The notes beneath the pieces are model-generated. The model made no database searches and was not told where the DNA came from. It worked only from the letters and a program-made list of their open reading frames with translations. A program made the translations under genes and the position numbers. This document shows, piece after piece, positions 4,690 through 14,657 of a stretch of DNA of 64,000 nt (the stretch's first letter is position 1; every line of letters starts with the position of its first letter). Source of the stretch: Nanobdellota archaeon (GTDB lineage: Archaea; Nanobdellota; Nanobdellia; Pacearchaeales; GW2011-AR1); contig JBBSYF010000001.1 in the NCBI GenBank assembly GCA_038045405.1, forward strand, positions 101,175 through 165,174, written 5' to 3'.

Positions 4690-5286
4690 TTACTTAAGAA
4701 GTCTTCGAAAACATTCTGCAGTCAATTTAGCATCAGTAAGAGCATTGTGAGCCTCTCCTTCTTTTATCACCTTCCCCTTTTCAACAACCCTCCGAGTATC
4801 TTTCAACCCGCAAAATTCCATAACACTAGGAAGATTCATATCACTTTTTCCTGTTTTTCCATCTTTCATTTTGAATTGCCCTTTTTTCTCCTTATACTTT
4901 AAACTAGCGAGAGTATGCAAATCTATTGTTCTAACACCTATCACTTCTGAGAATTTGTCTTTAATCCCCTATCGAATACATTTACTCTGTATAAAGATAA
5001 TATCAAAACCGACATTGTGTCCTGCAACTATTCTCTCATCGCATGTTTTACACCACTTCAAAAAATTTTCAATCATTTGTTTCTGACTCTGCTTTTTCTT
5101 GTCTCTTAAGTCCTCTTTTGTTTTTCCGATAACCATAAGAGCCTCTTCAGCAATTTCATCTTCATCGTCTATTCTACTCTCTTCAAGAAATACATTTTTT
5201 GGATTTTCAAACTCGACTGCTCCAATCTGCCAAATTCCACACCTTCCAGTGTCAAGCCCACTTGATTCAATATCTAAGACTATCAT
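4690..5286 (-). pseudogene. DEDDh (DnaQ-like) 3'-5' exonuclease interrupted by one in-frame TAG at 4969-4971
   Basis: Exo I DIESSG, Exo II HNVGFD and Exo III HNALTDA motifs lie in one continuous frame; the two listed ORFs share a frame and are separated only by a TAG. Confidence 0.6.
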
Positions 5287-5309
5287 TTTGTCATTTACCT
5301 ACCAAAACA

Positions 5310-5394
5310 TGCGGGCGAAAGGATTCGAACCTTCGAAGGCACTAAGCCAACAGATCTTGAGTCTGTCCCATTTGACCACTCTGGCACGCCCGCA
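5310..5394 (-). tRNA. tRNA-Leu(CAA), class II with a long variable arm
   Basis: The reverse complement GCGGGCGTGCCAGAGTGGTCAAATGGGACAGACTCAAGATCTGTT...GGTTCGAATCC...CGCCCGCA folds as a cloverleaf with anticodon loop CTCAAGA. Confidence 0.85.
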
Positions 5395-10086: not shown

Positions 10087-10202
10087 GAAAGACAGCACCA
10101 TTGCTTCGCGTCTTTTCGGACACTAACACAAGCGGCGTAGGAAGCTTAACTTCTGTGTTCGGAAAGGGAACAGGTGTTTCCAACCTACTATGGCCGTCTT
10201 CT
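10087..10202 (-). rRNA. 5S ribosomal RNA, orphan and not linked to 16S/23S
   Basis: The reverse complement contains GGCCATAG...GGAAACACCTGTTCCCTTTCCGAACACAGAAGTTAAGC..., the 5S loop C/helix signature. Terminal helix I pairs GAAGACGGC with GCTGTCTTTC. Confidence 0.8.
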
Positions 10203-11163: not shown

Positions 11164-11247
11164 GCGGGAATGCCAGAGTGGTCAAATGGGATGCGCTAAG
11201 GACGCATTGGCTTAGTGCCTGCGAAGGTTCAAATCCTTCTTCCCGCA
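11164..11247 (+). tRNA. tRNA-Leu, class II, with an apparent anticodon AAG
   Basis: GCGGGAATGCCAGAGTGGTCAAATGGGATGCGCTAAGGACGCATT...GGTTCAAATCC...TCCCGCA. It is near-identical to the tRNA-Leu(CAA) scaffold, with anticodon loop CTAAGGA. Confidence 0.75.
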
Positions 11248-11276
11248 TACAACATTAATTTCCTATTACGGAAGAC

Positions 11277-11351
11277 GCCCGGGTAGCTCAGCCTGGATAG
11301 AGCGAAAGGTTCCTAACCTTTAGGTCGCAGGTTCAAATCCTGTCTCGGGCA
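11277..11351 (+). tRNA. tRNA-Arg(CCU)
   Basis: GCCCGGGTAGCTCAGCCTGGATAGAGCGAAAGGTTCCTAACCTTTAGGTCGCAGGTTCAAATCCTGTCTCGGGCA, with anticodon loop TTCCTAA. Confidence 0.8.
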
Positions 11352-11379: not shown

Positions 11380-12090
11380 ATGTACAAAACAAAAATAAAA
11401 AAATTTGTAAGAGAAGCTTCAATACCTCTGGTATTTTTAGTCCTATACTACTTTTTATTCCATTTTCAAAAATTTATTTCATTGCCAACTCAAGACAAGT
11501 TCATGGATTTAATCTTAAATTTCATGAATACCCAAAACATCTTTTTAATATTTTTAATAGCATTAGTTGAAGGGGGGCTGATCTTAGGTCAATATTCTCC
11601 AGGAGGTATTGTTATTTTTTTGAGTATAATGTCTGCAGAAGGAAATATTCCCAAAATGATTTTGCTTCTTTCAGTTATATCACTTGCTTATTTGTTAGCA
11701 TATTCCCTTGATTACCTCTTCGGTTATTATGGGGTAGAAACTGTCATTAAAAAATTAGGTTTTGAAAAAAAAGTTGAAAGATATCGAAAGCTCCTTGATA
11801 AGAATGTTTTTAGTACCATTTTCTTCAGTTACGCCGAAACAAATATTGCCTCGCTTGTGGCAGTATCTTCAGGATTGCTAAAAATCCCCTTCAAAAAATT
11901 CATATACTTCTCGGTAATTTCTGTTATCTTTTGGAACACTTTTTGGGCAGTTGTTCTTTACTTCTTTGGAAATGCCATCCTGAGCATATTTGGAACTACT
12001 TACCTCGTAATAATCTTAGCAATATGGGTTTTGATTGTTTTTTATAACAATTTCTTAAAAAAGGAAGAAACAATTAACGTAAGCTCTTAA
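11380..12090 (+). CDS. DedA/SNARE-associated (TVP38-like) family membrane protein
   Basis: Polytopic membrane protein with a ...GLILGQYSPGG... and ...LDYLFGYYG... pattern. Confidence 0.45.
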   Translation: MYKTKIKKFVREASIPLVFLVLYYFLFHFQKFISLPTQDKFMDLILNFMNTQNIFLIFLIALVEGGLILGQYSPGGIVIFLSIMSAEGNIPKMILLLSVISLAYLLAYSLDYLFGYYGVETVIKKLGFEKKVERYRKLLDKNVFSTIFFSYAETNIASLVAVSSGLLKIPFKKFIYFSVISVIFWNTFWAVVLYFFGNAILSIFGTTYLVIILAIWVLIVFYNNFLKKEETINVSS

Positions 12091-12132
12091 AACCAAATAA
12101 AAATTCTTTATTCTCTTAACAATTTGTTAGAA

Positions 12133-12618
12133 TTAAACAACAAAGTAAAGAATCACTGTTGTATAAAATAAAACAATCAACTCATTCGTTACAAAATACT
12201 TTCCCGAAATTTCGTAGTTATTTTTTAACTTGAAAAGTAGGTAAAGGATAATTACTGATTGCAAGAGTATCACATGAAAGTAGATAAAAAAATCGCTAAA
12301 AAAGAAAATTGCGGCATCTTTTATGTAAGGTGTTATCAAAGAAGTTATGAGCAGGGTAACAAAAAACCCTTCAAAAAAATCACCCTTTTCTTTTCCCTCT
12401 TCTTTATCCTTTCTTGAAAAAATAGAGAACATTCCTTTTTGAAAAAGGTTTGAGAAAGCATATGCTAGACTTAATCCAACAAACCATGATGCTGGAGTCT
12501 TTATATAAGTAAATGACTTTTCAAATATACCAAAATTGGATATCTCTATCAGCGTTATCGCGCCCATAACCCCTAAGACCAAAAGTTCTAAGAGAAAAAA
12601 CTTTACATTCTTGTTCAT
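12133..12618 (-). CDS. hypothetical membrane protein
   Basis: 161 aa ORF with multiple hydrophobic helices. Confidence 0.3.
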   Translation of the reverse strand: MNKNVKFFLLELLVLGVMGAITLIEISNFGIFEKSFTYIKTPASWFVGLSLAYAFSNLFQKGMFSIFSRKDKEEGKEKGDFFEGFFVTLLITSLITPYIKDAAIFFFSDFFIYFHVILLQSVIILYLLFKLKNNYEISGKYFVTNELIVLFYTTVILYFVV

Positions 12619-12758
12619 GAGACAGAAGGTACACCAAATTTAATAAATCTTTACTACGTTACTTCTTCAGAATCAAAAGCCTTTAAAAGAGCTTATTTTT
12701 TAGTCCAGCGGTAGTACCAAATAGCAAAGTTTATAACTTTAATTTTCTTAACCAGAAC

Positions 12759-13631
12759 ATGCCTATCTTCGTAAAACTTACTAAAGAAGACAGAATTAGA
12801 CTATTCAAAGAAGCTAAGAAAAATCTAAATGGTCCATGGAACAAAGTTTACCCTCAGTTTAACATTAGTAAGTCAATGTTTTTTAACTACCTCTCTGGAA
12901 AATATGACATCCCCCAAGACATCTTCTTAAACCTGAAAAAAATAGCAAAATTTAACATATCTAACTATAAACAGTTCAATAAAAACAAATTCATAAAAAA
13001 AGAGATAAAAAATCCAATAATGGACAGTCACCTTGCAGAAATTCTAGGAGTTCTCAATGGTGATGGATACATATCTGATATTAAATATGAAATTAGTGTG
13101 GTTTTAAGTTCCTATGAAAAAAATTATGCTCTTTATCTAAAAAATATGTTTGAAAAAAAATTTAAAACTCATTTTAATCTCATTATTCAACCTGGGAAAA
13201 TCAGATTAAAGACTTATTCTACTGATATTTTTAAAATACTTACTTCTAACTATAACCTTCCAAATGGAAAGAAAAAAGGAAAATTAGCCATCCCAAAACA
13301 AGTTTTTACAAACAGAATATGGCTAATTTCTTATCTTAGGGGGTTATTTGACACTGATGGAAGTTTTTATATTAGAAGAAAAAAAGACCCTGTTATAGAG
13401 ATAAGTAGCGCAGATAAACGATTTTTAAACGAAGTAAAAGATACCTTAATCCATTTAGGATTTAATACATCTATTGGGACTAATAAAATTTCTATTTACA
13501 GAAAAGAAGATATCATCAAATTTTTCAATTTGATAAAACCTGCAAACTCAAAACATTTAAAAAAACATCAAAGTTACTTTAATTTAGGCGCTGGTAGTAT
13601 AATGGCTAGTATATCTGCCTTCCAGGCATAA
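12759..13631 (+). CDS. single-chain LAGLIDADG homing endonuclease-like protein with an N-terminal HTH-like region
   Basis: Two LAGLIDADG motifs, LAEILGVLNGDGYIS and LRGLFDTDGSFYI. The 3' end of the ORF runs into tRNA-Gly exon 1, so the true stop may be read-through ORF extension. Confidence 0.7.
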   Translation: MPIFVKLTKEDRIRLFKEAKKNLNGPWNKVYPQFNISKSMFFNYLSGKYDIPQDIFLNLKKIAKFNISNYKQFNKNKFIKKEIKNPIMDSHLAEILGVLNGDGYISDIKYEISVVLSSYEKNYALYLKNMFEKKFKTHFNLIIQPGKIRLKTYSTDIFKILTSNYNLPNGKKKGKLAIPKQVFTNRIWLISYLRGLFDTDGSFYIRRKKDPVIEISSADKRFLNEVKDTLIHLGFNTSIGTNKISIYRKEDIIKFFNLIKPANSKHLKKHQSYFNLGAGSIMASISAFQA

Positions 13632-13691
13632 AACCTTAAGGATTGAGTGCAAAGAAAGCAGATGGCCCGGGTTCGACTCCCGGCCGGCGCA
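13588..13691 (+). tRNA. tRNA-Gly(UCC) interrupted by an about 32-nt intron at the canonical 37/38 position
   Basis: Exons GCGCTGGTAGTATAATGGCTAGTATATCTGCCTTCCA / AGCAGATGGCCCGGGTTCGACTCCCGGCCGGCGCA match archaeal tRNA-Gly(UCC). The intron GGCATAAAACC...GCAAAGAA can pair with the anticodon loop, as in a bulge-helix-bulge substrate. Confidence 0.75.
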
Positions 13692-13700
13692 TTTTCAAAA

Positions 13701-14657
13701 ATGGACGAAAAAATAGAAAACAAAGGAGAACAGCATACAAACGCAGTTTTAAAAAAACATCCTGAAGCAAAAAAGAAATTTAACTTCAATTACGACAAAC
13801 ATTATGGAAAATTGTTCTTGATTCCAGTGATTCTCATGCTTTTCTCTGTAGGTTACTTATTCTATTTCTATTCTCAAACTGGAGAGTTCATTATCAAAGA
13901 TGTAAGTCTTTCAGGGGGAACAACTATAACTGTTTTCGGAAATTTTTCAGACACTGAAATTCAATCTTTGGAGAGTAGTTTAATGGCCCAGTATGACGAC
14001 ATCTCTTTCAGAAGGCTCACAGAGTCTACTTCAGGTAAGAGCTCTACATTTGTAATTGAAAGCCAAGAAGGGTCGGAAAAGATTACTGCCTCTATAGAAG
14101 AAATACTTGGAATAAAGCTCACACAACAAAACTCCAGCATAGAATTTTCGGATTCTGCTTTAGGTGAAAGTTTCTATCGTCAGTTAATTACCTCTTTGTT
14201 TATTTCTTTTGTATTAATGTCTATAGTTATCTTCATTCTTTTTAGGTCATTTGTTCCAAGTATGGCTGTGATCTTTGCAGCATTCTCTGACATAGTCATG
14301 CCTTTAGCCTTAATCGACTATTTAGGAATAAAACTTTCAGCAGCAGGAATTGCAGCATTCTTAATGTTAATAGGTTACTCGGTAGACACAGACATTCTTC
14401 TTACGACAAGAGCATTAAAGAAACAAGAAGGAACAATAAATGAAAGAATTTATGGAGCATTCAAAACAGGGATATTCATGAATGTAACTGCTTTAGCAGC
14501 AGTTCTTCCCGCATTTTTTATTGTAACGGGCTTACCAGACTCCTTTAGACAAATATTCTTCATTCTTGCATTAGGTTTAGTAGCGGACATTATTAACACA
14601 TGGCTTACAAATGCAAGTATAATCAAGTGGTATTGTGACAGGAAGGGAATAAAATGA
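13701..14657 (+). CDS. secF: protein-export membrane protein SecF
   Basis: C-terminal 6-TM SecD/F domain; the start is taken at ATG 13701 (MDEKIEN) because the listed ORF start lies inside the tRNA. It precedes secD. Confidence 0.7.
   Translation: MDEKIENKGEQHTNAVLKKHPEAKKKFNFNYDKHYGKLFLIPVILMLFSVGYLFYFYSQTGEFIIKDVSLSGGTTITVFGNFSDTEIQSLESSLMAQYDDISFRRLTESTSGKSSTFVIESQEGSEKITASIEEILGIKLTQQNSSIEFSDSALGESFYRQLITSLFISFVLMSIVIFILFRSFVPSMAVIFAAFSDIVMPLALIDYLGIKLSAAGIAAFLMLIGYSVDTDILLTTRALKKQEGTINERIYGAFKTGIFMNVTALAAVLPAFFIVTGLPDSFRQIFFILALGLVADIINTWLTNASIIKWYCDRKGIK

What the first reader, a model, noticed from the sequence alone, without database searches (positions are those of the whole stretch)
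12759..13691. Free-standing double-motif LAGLIDADG homing endonuclease gene running into an intron-containing tRNA-Gly
A 290-aa ORF carries two LAGLIDADG motifs (LAEILGVLNGDGYIS and LRGLFDTDGSFYI) and an N-terminal HTH-like region. It is not embedded in an rRNA intron or an intein. Instead it lies immediately upstream of tRNA-Gly(UCC), and its reading frame continues through tRNA exon 1 and stops inside the tRNA intron. Possible explanations are a homing endonuclease targeting this tRNA locus, a domesticated LAGLIDADG maturase or DNA-binding protein, or an ORF extension artefact in which the true stop was lost. Same-strand overlap of a CDS and a tRNA is unusual.
Basis: seen in the sequence. 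Interest (0 to 1): 0.6.

Follow-up and report, generated by a model that had tools for sequence, protein, structure and literature searches.

The report
Homing endonuclease gene inserted at tRNA-Gly
A selfish nuclease gene has inserted itself at the front of an essential tRNA gene in a tiny groundwater archaeon. It keeps the tRNA working by carrying a spare promoter and tRNA start inside its own coding tail, and relatives of the gene sit in front of tRNA genes in many ultra-small archaea and bacteria.

Summary
A 290-aa double-motif LAGLIDADG ORF (12759-13631) overlaps tRNA-Gly(UCC) (13588-13691) by 44 nt and stops inside its 32-nt intron.

The overlap is a family trait, not an artefact. In about 65 of 80 loci encoding relatives (DPANN archaea and CPR bacteria), the ORF ends within a few nucleotides of, or inside, a same-strand tRNA gene.

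The gene is an insertion. Among related tRNA-Arg/tRNA-Gly/SecF loci, 48 were empty and only 2-3 occupied. One occupied/empty pair differs by a clean ~0.93-kb indel.

Occupied sites carry a relic 5' quarter of tRNA-Gly upstream of the ORF (window 12701-18), usually with a tRNA-type TATA. A second TATA lies inside the ORF tail, where the codons K-H-L-K-K read AAACATTTAAAAAAA. These codons are frozen at synonymous sites, and the TATA sits at the distance seen for the window's other stable-RNA genes.

Both catalytic aspartates are conserved. Decayed copies and deletion footprints exist.

The tRNA intron is unrelated to the gene: 13 of 48 empty sites also have one.

Best reading: a free-standing homing endonuclease cassette inserted in or at the 5' end of tRNA-Gly that rebuilds its target. 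This is a new variant of a known kind, and I found no description of it in the literature searched.

The parts
11164..11351 (+). tRNA-Leu(AAG) 11164-11247 and tRNA-Arg(CCT) 11277-11351. In relatives these are the left neighbours of the insertion site.
   Evidence: ARAGORN and Rfam. The order Leu-Arg-[LAGLIDADG]-Gly-SecF-SecD recurs in L001-L022. In the window, two membrane-protein genes (11380-12090 +, with a VTT domain; 12133-12618 -) lie between tRNA-Arg and the cassette.
12680..12689 (+). Relic tRNA-type TATA box (CCTTTAAAAG), belonging to the upstream copy of the direct repeat.
   Evidence: It has the same motif as the TATA of the window's tRNA-Leu and 5S genes and of tRNA-Gly in empty sites. 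In relatives it precedes the tRNA-Gly 5' fragment by about 24 nt.
12701..12718 (+). Relic of a tRNA-Gly 5' quarter. Only the D-arm survives (TAGTCCAGCGGTAGTACC); the acceptor strand is lost.
   Evidence: Alignment A3 has invariant columns T-A-G-T..A-G..G, corresponding to tRNA U8 A9 G10 U11 A14 R15 G18. Full fragments (nt 1-25) are present in L001, L006-L008, L010, L012, L014, L015 and L019-L022.
12719..12737 (+). Conserved linker plus the ORF's own TATA box (AAATAGCAAAG TTTATAAC). The TATA starts 29 nt before the ATG.
   Evidence: It is conserved in position and sequence across occupied loci. The spacing implies a leaderless mRNA; this is an inference.
12759..13631 (+). LAGLIDADG homing endonuclease gene, 290 aa.
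   Evidence: more than 150 homologues at 42-72% identity. The AF2 model has pLDDT 89.6. Foldseek top hits are I-Tsp061I, the TliVMA and PI-PfuI intein endonucleases, I-AniI and I-DmoI.
12759..13028 (+). N-terminal four-helix domain, HTH-like (residues 1-90).
   Evidence: AF2 secondary structure H9-23, H27-34, H38-46, H53-63. A sub-threshold HTH_3 hit occurs in relative L019. The DNA-binding role is inferred.
13032..13076 (+). LAGLIDADG motif 1 (LAEILGVLNGDGYIS). The catalytic Asp102 codon is at 13062-13064.
   Evidence: G101, D102 and G103 are invariant in A1. D is found in 80 of 80 aligned relatives.
13335..13373 (+). LAGLIDADG motif 2 (LRGLFDTDGSFYI). The catalytic Asp200 codon is at 13356-13358.
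   Evidence: It is nearly invariant in A1, with one Glu. It is lost only in the decaying copy L017, which reads DAYG.
13551..13565 (+). Codons K265-H-L-K-K269 (AAACATTTAAAAAAA), which double as the TATA box and upstream flank of tRNA-Gly embedded in the ORF tail. The TATA starts 32-33 nt before tRNA +1.
   Evidence: The position matches the TATA of the window's tRNA-Leu genes and 5S rRNA and of tRNA-Gly in empty sites. Synonymous sites are frozen: TTA in 24/24 loci against 12-15/24 at other invariant Leu columns, and AAA in 24/24 and 23/23 against 14-19.
13588..13691 (+). tRNA-Gly(UCC): exon 1 13588-13624, intron 13625-13656 (32 nt, position 37/38), exon 2 13657-13691. A T-run follows at 13692-13695.
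   Evidence: Rfam 54.4 bits; fold.
13588..13631 (+). The 44-nt CDS/tRNA overlap. It encodes a non-conserved 14-aa tail (GAGSIMASISAFQA), and the stop TAA lies in the intron.
   Evidence: Homologues end at about 276-282 aa. Residues 278-290 have pLDDT below 50. Relatives stop at tRNA nt 8-16 or just before the tRNA.

Best explanation
The ORF is a free-standing, monomeric double-motif LAGLIDADG homing endonuclease gene. It forms a roughly 0.9-kb cassette inserted at the 5' end of the single-copy tRNA-Gly(UCC) gene of a DPANN archaeon (Nanoarchaeota, Pacearchaeota/Woesearchaeota type) from groundwater.

Anatomy, as shown by the sequences. From left to right the cassette holds:
- an old tRNA-type TATA;
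- a 5' quarter of tRNA-Gly (nt 1-25, degenerate in the window);
- a short conserved linker with the ORF's own TATA;
- the ORF;
- an intact tRNA-Gly.
The last ~45 nt of the ORF contain a second tRNA-type TATA, at the same distance from the mature 5' end as in the window's other stable-RNA genes. The ORF ends inside the tRNA. The insertion therefore behaves like an insertion after tRNA position ~25 that brings its own promoter and its own copy of nt 1-25, so a complete, promoter-equipped tRNA-Gly is rebuilt downstream.

Mechanism, inferred. The enzyme cuts cassette-free tRNA-Gly alleles at or near the D-arm/anticodon-stem junction. Double-strand-break repair then uses the upstream fragment as the left homology arm and the resident tRNA as the right arm, and copies the cassette in. 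Because the essential tRNA's promoter lies inside the ORF tail, only precise loss by recombination between the two repeats is tolerated. The family-wide lack of an own stop codon follows from this nesting, since the ORF stops at whatever stop the tRNA offers. In the window, the reading frame misses the UAG (nt 8-10) and UAA (D-loop) used by relatives and runs on to a TAA in the intron.
For: Enzyme. Pfam LAGLIDADG_3. AF2 model with pLDDT 89.6. Best structural matches are archaeal intron-encoded and intein-encoded LAGLIDADG endonucleases. D102 and D200 are conserved.

Link to tRNA genes. About 65 of 80 loci with relatives have a same-strand tRNA starting within a few nt of the ORF stop, typically 10-16 nt before the end of the stop codon. 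Rfam confirms this for the CPR loci. The background is at most about a dozen of roughly 490 other ORFs.

Insertion polymorphism. In a SecF-anchored sample of related metagenome loci, 48 sites were empty and 2 (+1) occupied. The empty sites included tRNA-Arg-41..130 nt-tRNA-Gly-SecF arrangements. L022 and L095 are about 80% identical on both flanks and differ by ~933 bp.

Direct-repeat anatomy. A tRNA-Gly 5' fragment, or at least its D-arm, is recognisable upstream of the ORF in almost all of the ~25 occupied Gly loci examined. It is also present in paralogues at other tRNAs: L027, L043, L056 and L077 match 21-22 of 24 nt, with 0-1 of 200 controls reaching that score.

Embedded promoter. The position matches other stable-RNA genes, and the synonymous sites are frozen.

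Life cycle. A nonsense copy that has lost the Asp (L017) and a frameshifted paralogue (L102) exist. Deletion footprints keep the ORF tail in empty sites L103 and L120 (33/36) and L090 (30/36), against a median of 19.5. L022's endonuclease and fragment group with L019-L021 while its SecD groups elsewhere. The fragments match the commonest tRNA-Gly alleles of empty sites rather than the resident tRNA.
Against: No cleavage activity or target site has been shown.

The rebuilt tRNA regenerates the presumed target, so self-immunity is unexplained. The test for divergent D-arms in resident tRNAs was negative at the population level (p = 0.53) and marginal within loci (p = 0.049, non-independent data).

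Among occupied loci, the endonuclease co-diverges with SecD almost as well as SecF does (Spearman 0.47 against 0.57). Most copies are intact at 42-72% identity. Both points indicate long vertical residence and purifying selection, which could also reflect a host function.

Most CPR relatives show tRNA adjacency but no upstream fragment.

The insertion point (position 25/26 versus upstream of the promoter) cannot be fixed, because the repeats make the two descriptions equivalent.

The occupancy estimate comes from one synteny-anchored metagenome sample.
Confidence: 0.75

Rival explanations
1. Domesticated LAGLIDADG DNA-binding protein. On this reading it is a WhiA-like regulator or chromatin factor that acts on the adjacent tRNA gene or cluster and is kept by the host, not a mobile element.
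For: Synteny is conserved and divergence is correlated with SecD and SecF. ORFs remain intact at 42-72% identity. The protein has an N-terminal HTH-like domain. Some JGI records name relatives 'WhiA', and WhiA appears among the structural hits.
Against: Only about 5% of related loci carry the gene, so it is dispensable. Both catalytic Asp residues are kept, whereas, from memory, WhiA has lost them. Decayed copies and deletion footprints exist. Paralogues sit at many different tRNAs with their cognate 5' fragments. The WhiA Pfam hit is marginal (23.0 against a cut-off of 23.2), and the HTH is N-terminal here rather than C-terminal.
Confidence: 0.12
2. The ORF lies in a giant intron or split arrangement of tRNA-Gly. 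The upstream 5' quarter and the downstream 3' three-quarters would be joined by the splicing endonuclease, so this would be an intron-encoded endonuclease like those of archaeal rRNA introns.
For: ARAGORN assembles such a tRNA with a 904-nt intron in L008. Upstream fragments have their own TATA at the right distance.
Against: A complete tRNA-Gly always follows, with its own TATA and its own matching acceptor strand. In the window and several relatives the upstream fragment has lost the acceptor strand, so it cannot serve as an exon. No BHB joining the two junctions was looked for.
Confidence: 0.03
3. Relic of an integrase-type integrative element. Such elements classically target tRNA genes and leave a partial tRNA copy. 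On this reading the LAGLIDADG gene is passive cargo.
For: The signature of a partial tRNA duplicate flanking an insertion next to an intact tRNA is the one known for integrative elements. A published example is a 1.8-kb recombinase-coding insertion in Caldiarchaeum (cited in PMC4033280).
Against: The ~0.9-kb insert holds nothing but the LAGLIDADG gene. The same minimal architecture recurs at many tRNAs, always with the LAGLIDADG ORF nested into the repeat. No recombinase ORF is seen next to the cassette in the window.
Confidence: 0.05
4. Collaborative homing with the tRNA intron. The endonuclease would cut the intron-less anticodon loop, and the 37/38 intron would protect the host allele.
For: The window's tRNA-Gly has an intron, and the ORF stops inside it.
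Against: Most occupied sites have an intronless tRNA-Gly. 13 of 48 empty sites carry a 37/38 intron. The relic fragment ends at about position 25, not 37.
Confidence: 0.03

Closest known systems
Phage T4 SegB (free-standing GIY-YIG homing endonuclease in a tRNA gene cluster; PMC2330249)
   Same: It is a free-standing endonuclease gene lying among tRNA genes. Its recognition site includes a conserved tRNA-gene motif. The gene and its flanking tRNA region are inherited preferentially, and relatives lack it.
   Different: SegB belongs to a different nuclease family (GIY-YIG) and is a phage gene, not a cellular one. It has no duplication of a tRNA fragment, no ORF/tRNA overlap and no promoter nested in the coding tail.
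Archaeal intron- and intein-encoded LAGLIDADG endonucleases (I-Tsp061I, I-DmoI, PI-PfuI, TliVMA)
   Same: These are the best structural matches. They share the monomeric two-domain fold with one acidic residue per motif and Pfam LAGLIDADG_3 membership.
   Different: They are sheltered in BHB rRNA introns or inteins that splice out. Here there is no splicing element. Harmlessness to the host is achieved at the DNA level by rebuilding the target gene. This protein also has an extra ~90-aa N-terminal helical domain.
Free-standing organellar endonuclease ORFs that insert at the end of a host gene and carry a replacement copy of the displaced end (fungal mitochondria; recalled from memory, not checked here)
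   Same: The logic is the same: the element restores the interrupted gene with its own copy of the gene end and leaves a relic of the original end.
   Different: Those cases involve the 3' ends of protein-coding genes in organelles. Here the displaced part is the 5' quarter plus the promoter of a chromosomal tRNA gene, and it overlaps the endonuclease's own coding tail.
tRNA-targeting integrative elements of archaea (tyrosine recombinase; e.g. the 1.8-kb insertion separating a tRNA fragment from its tRNA gene, as cited in PMC4033280 and PMC4390854)
   Same: The target is a tRNA gene, and a partial tRNA copy lies on one side with an intact tRNA on the other.
   Different: The enzyme and mechanism differ (recombinase with att sites versus double-strand break and repair). 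Those elements are much larger, and their ORFs are not nested in the repeat.
LAGLIDADG genes in rRNA insertion sequences and group I introns of CPR bacteria and DPANN archaea (PMC11270868, PMC6125680)
   Same: The host groups and the protein superfamily are the same, and the target is a conserved stable-RNA gene.
   Different: Those genes sit inside rRNA genes within introns or insertion sequences. Neither paper describes a tRNA-linked, free-standing clade.
Bacterial WhiA
   Same: It has a degenerate double LAGLIDADG fold plus an HTH domain. Some database records name relatives of this ORF 'WhiA'.
   Different: In WhiA the HTH is C-terminal and the catalytic residues are lost (from memory). 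It is a conserved bacterial regulator. Here the HTH-like domain is N-terminal, both Asp residues are kept, and the distribution is sporadic.

Membership tests
LAGLIDADG homing endonucleases (monomeric, double-motif) | Two LAGLIDADG helices, each ending in a conserved acidic residue | tested here: met
   Motif 1 is ...LNGDG with D102 invariant. Motif 2 is ...FDTDG with D200 nearly invariant (one Glu).
LAGLIDADG homing endonucleases (monomeric, double-motif) | Two alpha-beta-beta-alpha-beta-beta-alpha domains forming a DNA-binding saddle | tested here: met
   The AF2 model has pLDDT 89.6 with the expected helix/strand order. Foldseek gives probability 1.0 to I-Tsp061I, PI-PfuI, I-AniI, I-DmoI and I-SceI.
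LAGLIDADG homing endonucleases (monomeric, double-motif) | Profile match above the curated cut-off | tested here: met
   Pfam LAGLIDADG_3 scores 54.6 bits against a cut-off of 22.5. Only the second domain is matched by Pfam.
LAGLIDADG homing endonucleases (monomeric, double-motif) | Site-specific double-strand cleavage of the element-free allele | not testable with these tools
   This needs purified protein and synthetic empty-site substrates.
Homing (mobile) endonuclease genes in general | Presence/absence polymorphism at one defined genomic site in related genomes | tested here: met
   48 sites were empty against 2-3 occupied. L022 and L095 differ by a clean ~933-bp indel.
Homing (mobile) endonuclease genes in general | Signs of the gain/decay/loss cycle and of horizontal transfer | tested here: inconclusive
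   Decayed copies L017 and L102, footprints and the incongruence of L022 speak for the cycle. The overall co-divergence with SecD (rho 0.47) speaks for long vertical phases.
Intron- or intein-encoded endonucleases | The ORF lies inside a self-splicing intron, a BHB intron or an intein | tested here: not met
   No intron family was found by Rfam. The ORF starts 829 nt upstream of the tRNA and is not in frame with a host protein. Only its last 7 nt lie in the tRNA's 32-nt BHB intron.
Archaeal BHB tRNA intron (for the tRNA-Gly part) | Canonical 37/38 position and a bulge-helix-bulge motif at the exon-intron boundaries | tested here: met
   The insertion lies after position 37. The fold shows a 3-nt bulge and a 4-bp helix. 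The central helix has 3 bp plus one mismatch in the canonical register, so the BHB is relaxed.
WhiA | C-terminal HTH domain, loss of the catalytic acidic residues, and conserved single-copy bacterial distribution | tested here: not met
   The helical domain is N-terminal. Both Asp residues are kept. The hosts are archaeal and occupancy is sporadic. LAGLIDADG_WhiA scores 23.0 against a cut-off of 23.2.

The most novel reading that the evidence does not exclude
This clade of endonuclease cassettes may be a so far unrecognised force acting on tRNA genes in ultra-small archaea and bacteria. By inserting after the D-arm, it creates promoter-bearing 5'-quarter tRNA gene pieces, the same kind of piece that tri-split tRNA-Gly of Caldivirga is assembled from (PMC4390854). 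By cutting intact tRNA genes, it would select for alleles interrupted by introns or splits. That would give a concrete agent for the Randau-Soll idea that disrupted tRNA genes are a defence against mobile elements. Non-canonical D-loop and T-loop introns in the tRNA-Gly next to some cassettes (L008, L019, L023, L027, L028) fit this reading. No statistical link was shown.
Probability: 0.15. Interest if true: 0.85.

Novelty: new variant of a known kind. Interest (0 to 1): 0.65.

Why it matters
Homing endonuclease genes usually survive by hiding in self-splicing introns or inteins. Here the same harmlessness is achieved purely at the DNA level. The cassette carries a promoter and the first 25 nt of the tRNA inside its own coding tail, so one stretch of DNA serves at once as protein code, as archaeal promoter and as the tRNA 5' end that provides the stop codon.

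The arrangement has several practical consequences:
- It ties removal of the selfish gene to the expression of an essential tRNA.
- It explains a class of CDS/tRNA overlaps that gene callers mis-handle in DPANN and CPR genomes.
- It yields natural rare-cutting enzymes with tRNA-gene targets.
- It offers a testable link between mobile endonucleases and the fragmented or intron-rich tRNA genes of archaea.

The profile search found 159 clusters (at 50% identity) at E <= 1e-30, so this is a sizeable family and not a one-off.

Tried and rejected
1. Intron-linked (collaborative) homing. Rejected, because introns occur equally in empty sites and most occupied sites are intronless.

2. Chance or artefactual ORF extension. 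Rejected for the overlap as such, because it is family-wide. Accepted only for the 14-aa tail.

3. Immunity of the resident tRNA through a divergent D-arm. The population-level test was negative (p = 0.53) and the within-locus test marginal (p = 0.049). Left open.

4. Decayed endonuclease remnants in the 380-750-nt Arg-Gly gaps of 'empty' loci. None were found by tblastn. The gaps hold other small genes: a membrane protein homologous to window 12133-12618, a C39-like peptidase and Cys/His-rich ORFs.

5. HNH assignment of those Cys/His ORFs. There was no Pfam hit, so the resemblance is by eye only.

6. An upstream tRNA fragment in CPR relatives. Not found, except in L071.

7. Group I intron or any other Rfam family around the ORF. 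None.

8. NCBIfam. Only weak hits to the intein regions of IF-2, helicase and GyrA models.

9. Literature. Five searches for LAGLIDADG or homing endonucleases linked to tRNA genes, DPANN or CPR gave no description of this arrangement. The library does not hold most subscription journals.

Full report
**Observation.** The window holds an ORF at 12759-13631 (+) of 290 aa. It contains the two quoted LAGLIDADG motifs. Pfam LAGLIDADG_3 matches residues 190-259 (E 1.3e-14, 54.6 bits against a cut-off of 22.5).

Rfam places a tRNA at 13588-13691 on the same strand (54.4 bits) with 32 extra nucleotides after position 37. Default ARAGORN misses it. With introns allowed, ARAGORN finds the same coordinates but mislabels the anticodon. 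Read by hand it is tRNA-Gly(UCC): exon 1 is 13588-13624, the intron is 13625-13656 and exon 2 is 13657-13691. The fold gives a 3-nt bulge next to a 4-bp helix, and a relaxed bulge-helix-bulge motif in the canonical register. The ORF's TAA (13629-13631) is in the intron, so CDS and tRNA overlap by 44 nt.

**The protein.** A database search returns more than 150 homologues of 42-72% identity. Nearly all are 270-285 aa long and come from Nanoarchaeota, Pacearchaeota or Woesearchaeota metagenome bins. They cover about 95% of the query, that is, everything except the tRNA-encoded tail.

In a 32-sequence alignment, G101-D102-G103 are invariant and D200 is nearly so, with one Glu. The AlphaFold model is confident (pLDDT 89.6), except for residues 278-290, which fall below 50. 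Its best structural matches are the archaeal intron-encoded I-Tsp061I, the TliVMA and PI-PfuI intein endonucleases, I-AniI and the bI3 maturase, and I-DmoI. WhiA ranks lower.

The first ~90 residues form four helices. A relative's N-terminus gives a sub-threshold HTH_3 hit (E 0.017), so 'HTH-like' is an inference. A profile search of 1.84 billion cluster representatives finds 159 clusters at E <= 1e-30.

**The link to tRNA genes is a family trait.** The C-termini in the alignment end in ...ALVV...KRG and similar peptides, which are translations of a tRNA 5' end.

I fetched 80 genomic loci encoding relatives. In about 65 of them a same-strand tRNA gene starts within a few nucleotides of the ORF stop. 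Most often the tRNA's first nucleotide lies 10-16 nt before the end of the stop codon, which is the tRNA's own U8-A9-G10 or a D-loop UAA. Five more have a tRNA-Gly with non-canonical introns that ARAGORN misses. At most about a dozen of roughly 490 other ORFs in the same loci have such a neighbour.

Close relatives (42-60% identity) always precede tRNA-Gly(UCC). Distant ones (25-36%) precede tRNAs for Gln, Thr, Ser, Tyr, His, Ala, Leu, Glu and others. These distant relatives come from Aenigmatarchaeota, Micrarchaeota and Iainarchaeum, and from CPR bacteria such as Saccharibacteria and Paceibacteria. Rfam confirms the CPR cases.

**It is an insertion.** Around tRNA-Gly the order tRNA-Leu, tRNA-Arg(CCT), [endonuclease], tRNA-Gly(UCC), SecF, SecD is conserved.

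To sample relatives without regard to the endonuclease, I searched metagenome contigs with a SecF alignment. Of the loci that could be judged, 48 have no endonuclease gene, and many show tRNA-Arg followed after 41-130 nt by tRNA-Gly. Two have the gene at the expected place, plus one more on the other strand.

The occupied locus L022 and the empty locus L095 are about 80% identical over 3.3 and 3.5 kb on either side and differ by ~933 bp at this spot. The window's closest SecF relative in the metagenome sample, L081 (75%), shows the VTT-domain gene followed by 51 nt and then tRNA-Gly in the 573 nt available upstream. L003 (76%) has the VTT gene, then the endonuclease, then tRNA-Gly.

**Anatomy of the cassette.** Upstream of the ORF, occupied loci carry, in order:
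- a tRNA-type TATA box (e.g. AAACCTTTAAAA), present in most of them;
- about 24 nt further on, a 5' fragment of tRNA-Gly ending at about position 25 (e.g. GCGCTGGTAGTTCAGTGGTAGAAC);
- a conserved linker and TATA (AAATAGAAAGATTTATAA);
- about 21 nt further on, the ATG.

In the window the acceptor strand is gone, but the D-arm (12701-12718) and the old TATA (12680-12689) remain.

At the other end, the invariant peptide K-H-L-K-K is encoded by AAACATTTAAAAAA(A/G). Its TTTAAAA starts 32-33 nt before tRNA +1. This is the distance at which the window's two tRNA-Leu genes and the 5S rRNA gene have their TATA, and where tRNA-Gly in empty sites has AAAC(C/T)TTTAAAA.

The codons are frozen at synonymous sites. 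Leu is TTA in 24 of 24 loci, against 12-15 of 24 at four other invariant Leu columns. Lys is AAA in 24/24 and 23/23, against 14-19.

The cassette is therefore flanked by direct repeats of [promoter + tRNA nt 1-25]. The downstream repeat is part of the coding tail and of the working tRNA.

The same layout (tRNA 5' fragment, TATA, ORF, tRNA) is found for paralogues at other tRNAs: L027, L035, L043, L050, L055, L056, L065 and L077. The best of these match 21-22 of 24 nt, with 0-1 of 200 controls as good. Most CPR loci show no fragment.

**Signs of a mobile life.**
- L017 has an in-frame stop and DAYG in place of DTDG. A paralogue in front of tRNA-Arg (L102) is frameshifted.
- Empty sites L103, L120 and L090 keep 30-33 of the last 36 nt of the ORF in front of tRNA-Gly, against a median of 19.5 for empty sites. 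This is what recombination between the repeats would leave. The reverse reading, that the ORF tail grew out of such a promoter region, is not excluded.
- L022's endonuclease and fragment type group with L019-L021, while its SecD groups with other genomes.
- The upstream fragments are no closer to the resident tRNA than to a random tRNA-Gly allele. They match the two commonest alleles of empty sites.
- On the other side, endonuclease identities among occupied loci correlate with SecD identities (rho 0.47, against 0.57 for SecF versus SecD). Long vertical phases therefore occur.

**The intron.** 13 of 48 empty sites have a 37/38 intron, and most occupied sites have none. The intron is a bystander. 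It matters only because, in the window's reading frame, the first stop happens to lie in it.

**How it most likely works.**

Shown:
- a catalytically equipped LAGLIDADG fold;
- an insertion polymorphism;
- repeat anatomy that rebuilds the tRNA;
- a promoter-like element nested in the coding tail.

Inferred:
- The enzyme cuts cassette-free tRNA-Gly alleles near the D-arm/anticodon-stem junction.
- Repair uses the upstream fragment and the resident tRNA as homology arms.
- tRNA-Gly is transcribed from the embedded TATA, and the ORF is transcribed as a leaderless mRNA that reads into the tRNA.
- Nesting the tRNA's promoter in the ORF tail hinders loss of the gene.

Unknown: how the rebuilt tRNA escapes cleavage. 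The D-arm test was negative or marginal.

**Comparison with what is known.** The nearest functional analogue is T4 SegB, a free-standing GIY-YIG endonuclease in a tRNA cluster whose site includes a tRNA motif (PMC2330249). The nearest structural relatives are intron- and intein-encoded archaeal enzymes. The partial-tRNA signature resembles recombinase-driven integration (PMC4033280, PMC4390854). LAGLIDADG genes of CPR and DPANN have been described in rRNA introns and insertions (PMC11270868, PMC6125680).

Five literature searches found no account of a tRNA-linked, target-rebuilding LAGLIDADG clade. The library is incomplete, so prior description cannot be excluded.

**Verdict.** The interpretation as a tRNA-locus homing endonuclease is supported in substance but not in its intron-related details. 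I rate it a new variant of a known kind, of moderate to high interest.

Noticed in passing
L086, L106 (1156-1500), L110 (2919-3251), L111, L114: Small Cys/His-rich ORFs (CxxC...HH...CxNCH, HNH-like by eye) end just upstream of the tRNA-Gly promoter in loci that lack the LAGLIDADG gene. They may be a second nuclease family using the same spot. Pfam gave no hit.
   Followed up: partly
L088 224-1234; L102 2487-3478; L136 11-361: LAGLIDADG paralogues sit directly in front of tRNA-Arg(CCT) (L088 intact, L102 frameshifted) and of tRNA-Leu(CAA) (L136) in the same tRNA cluster. Neighbouring tRNAs therefore each have their own cassette lineage.
   Followed up: partly
L008 ~4841-4927; L019 ~4829-4940; L023, L027, L028 downstream of the ORF: The tRNA-Gly next to some cassettes carries non-canonical introns in the D-loop (L008, L019) or T-loop (L023, L027, L028). 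ARAGORN and Rfam miss these or report them truncated. No statistical link to the cassette was tested.
   Followed up: no
L047 3362-3429; L060 3863-3930: A truncated 62-65-nt tRNA-Gln-like sequence lies directly upstream of a LAGLIDADG relative, and an intact intron-bearing tRNA-Gln lies only ~0.8 kb downstream. This layout differs from the rest of the family.
   Followed up: no
window 5309-5394 (-), 10087-10201 (-), 11164-11247 (+), 13588 (+): These four stable-RNA genes (two tRNA-Leu, a stand-alone 5S rRNA and tRNA-Gly) all have a TATA-like box starting 31-33 nt before the mature 5' end. This suggests transcripts with little or no 5' leader in this organism. tRNA-Arg (11277) follows tRNA-Leu after 29 nt and has no box of its own.
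   Followed up: partly
window 13662-14657: Public gene calls start SecF at 13662, inside tRNA-Gly exon 2 (331 aa). ATG 13701 (318 aa), just after the tRNA and its T-run, is the more likely start.
   Followed up: no
window 11380-12618; L092, L131, L081, L003: The two membrane-protein genes between tRNA-Arg and the cassette (a VTT/DedA-domain gene and a 161-aa ORF on the minus strand) are themselves variably present between tRNA-Arg and tRNA-Gly in relatives. The intergenic space of this tRNA cluster is a hotspot for small insertions.
   Followed up: partly
L088 1289-1699; L100 2965-3375: A 137-aa Peptidase_C39-like ORF lies between tRNA-Arg and tRNA-Gly in two loci that lack the tRNA-Gly cassette.
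   Followed up: no
L038 562-953: A tmRNA gene lies in the Saccharibacteria locus about 3 kb upstream of its LAGLIDADG/tRNA-Ser pair. This is incidental.
   Followed up: no
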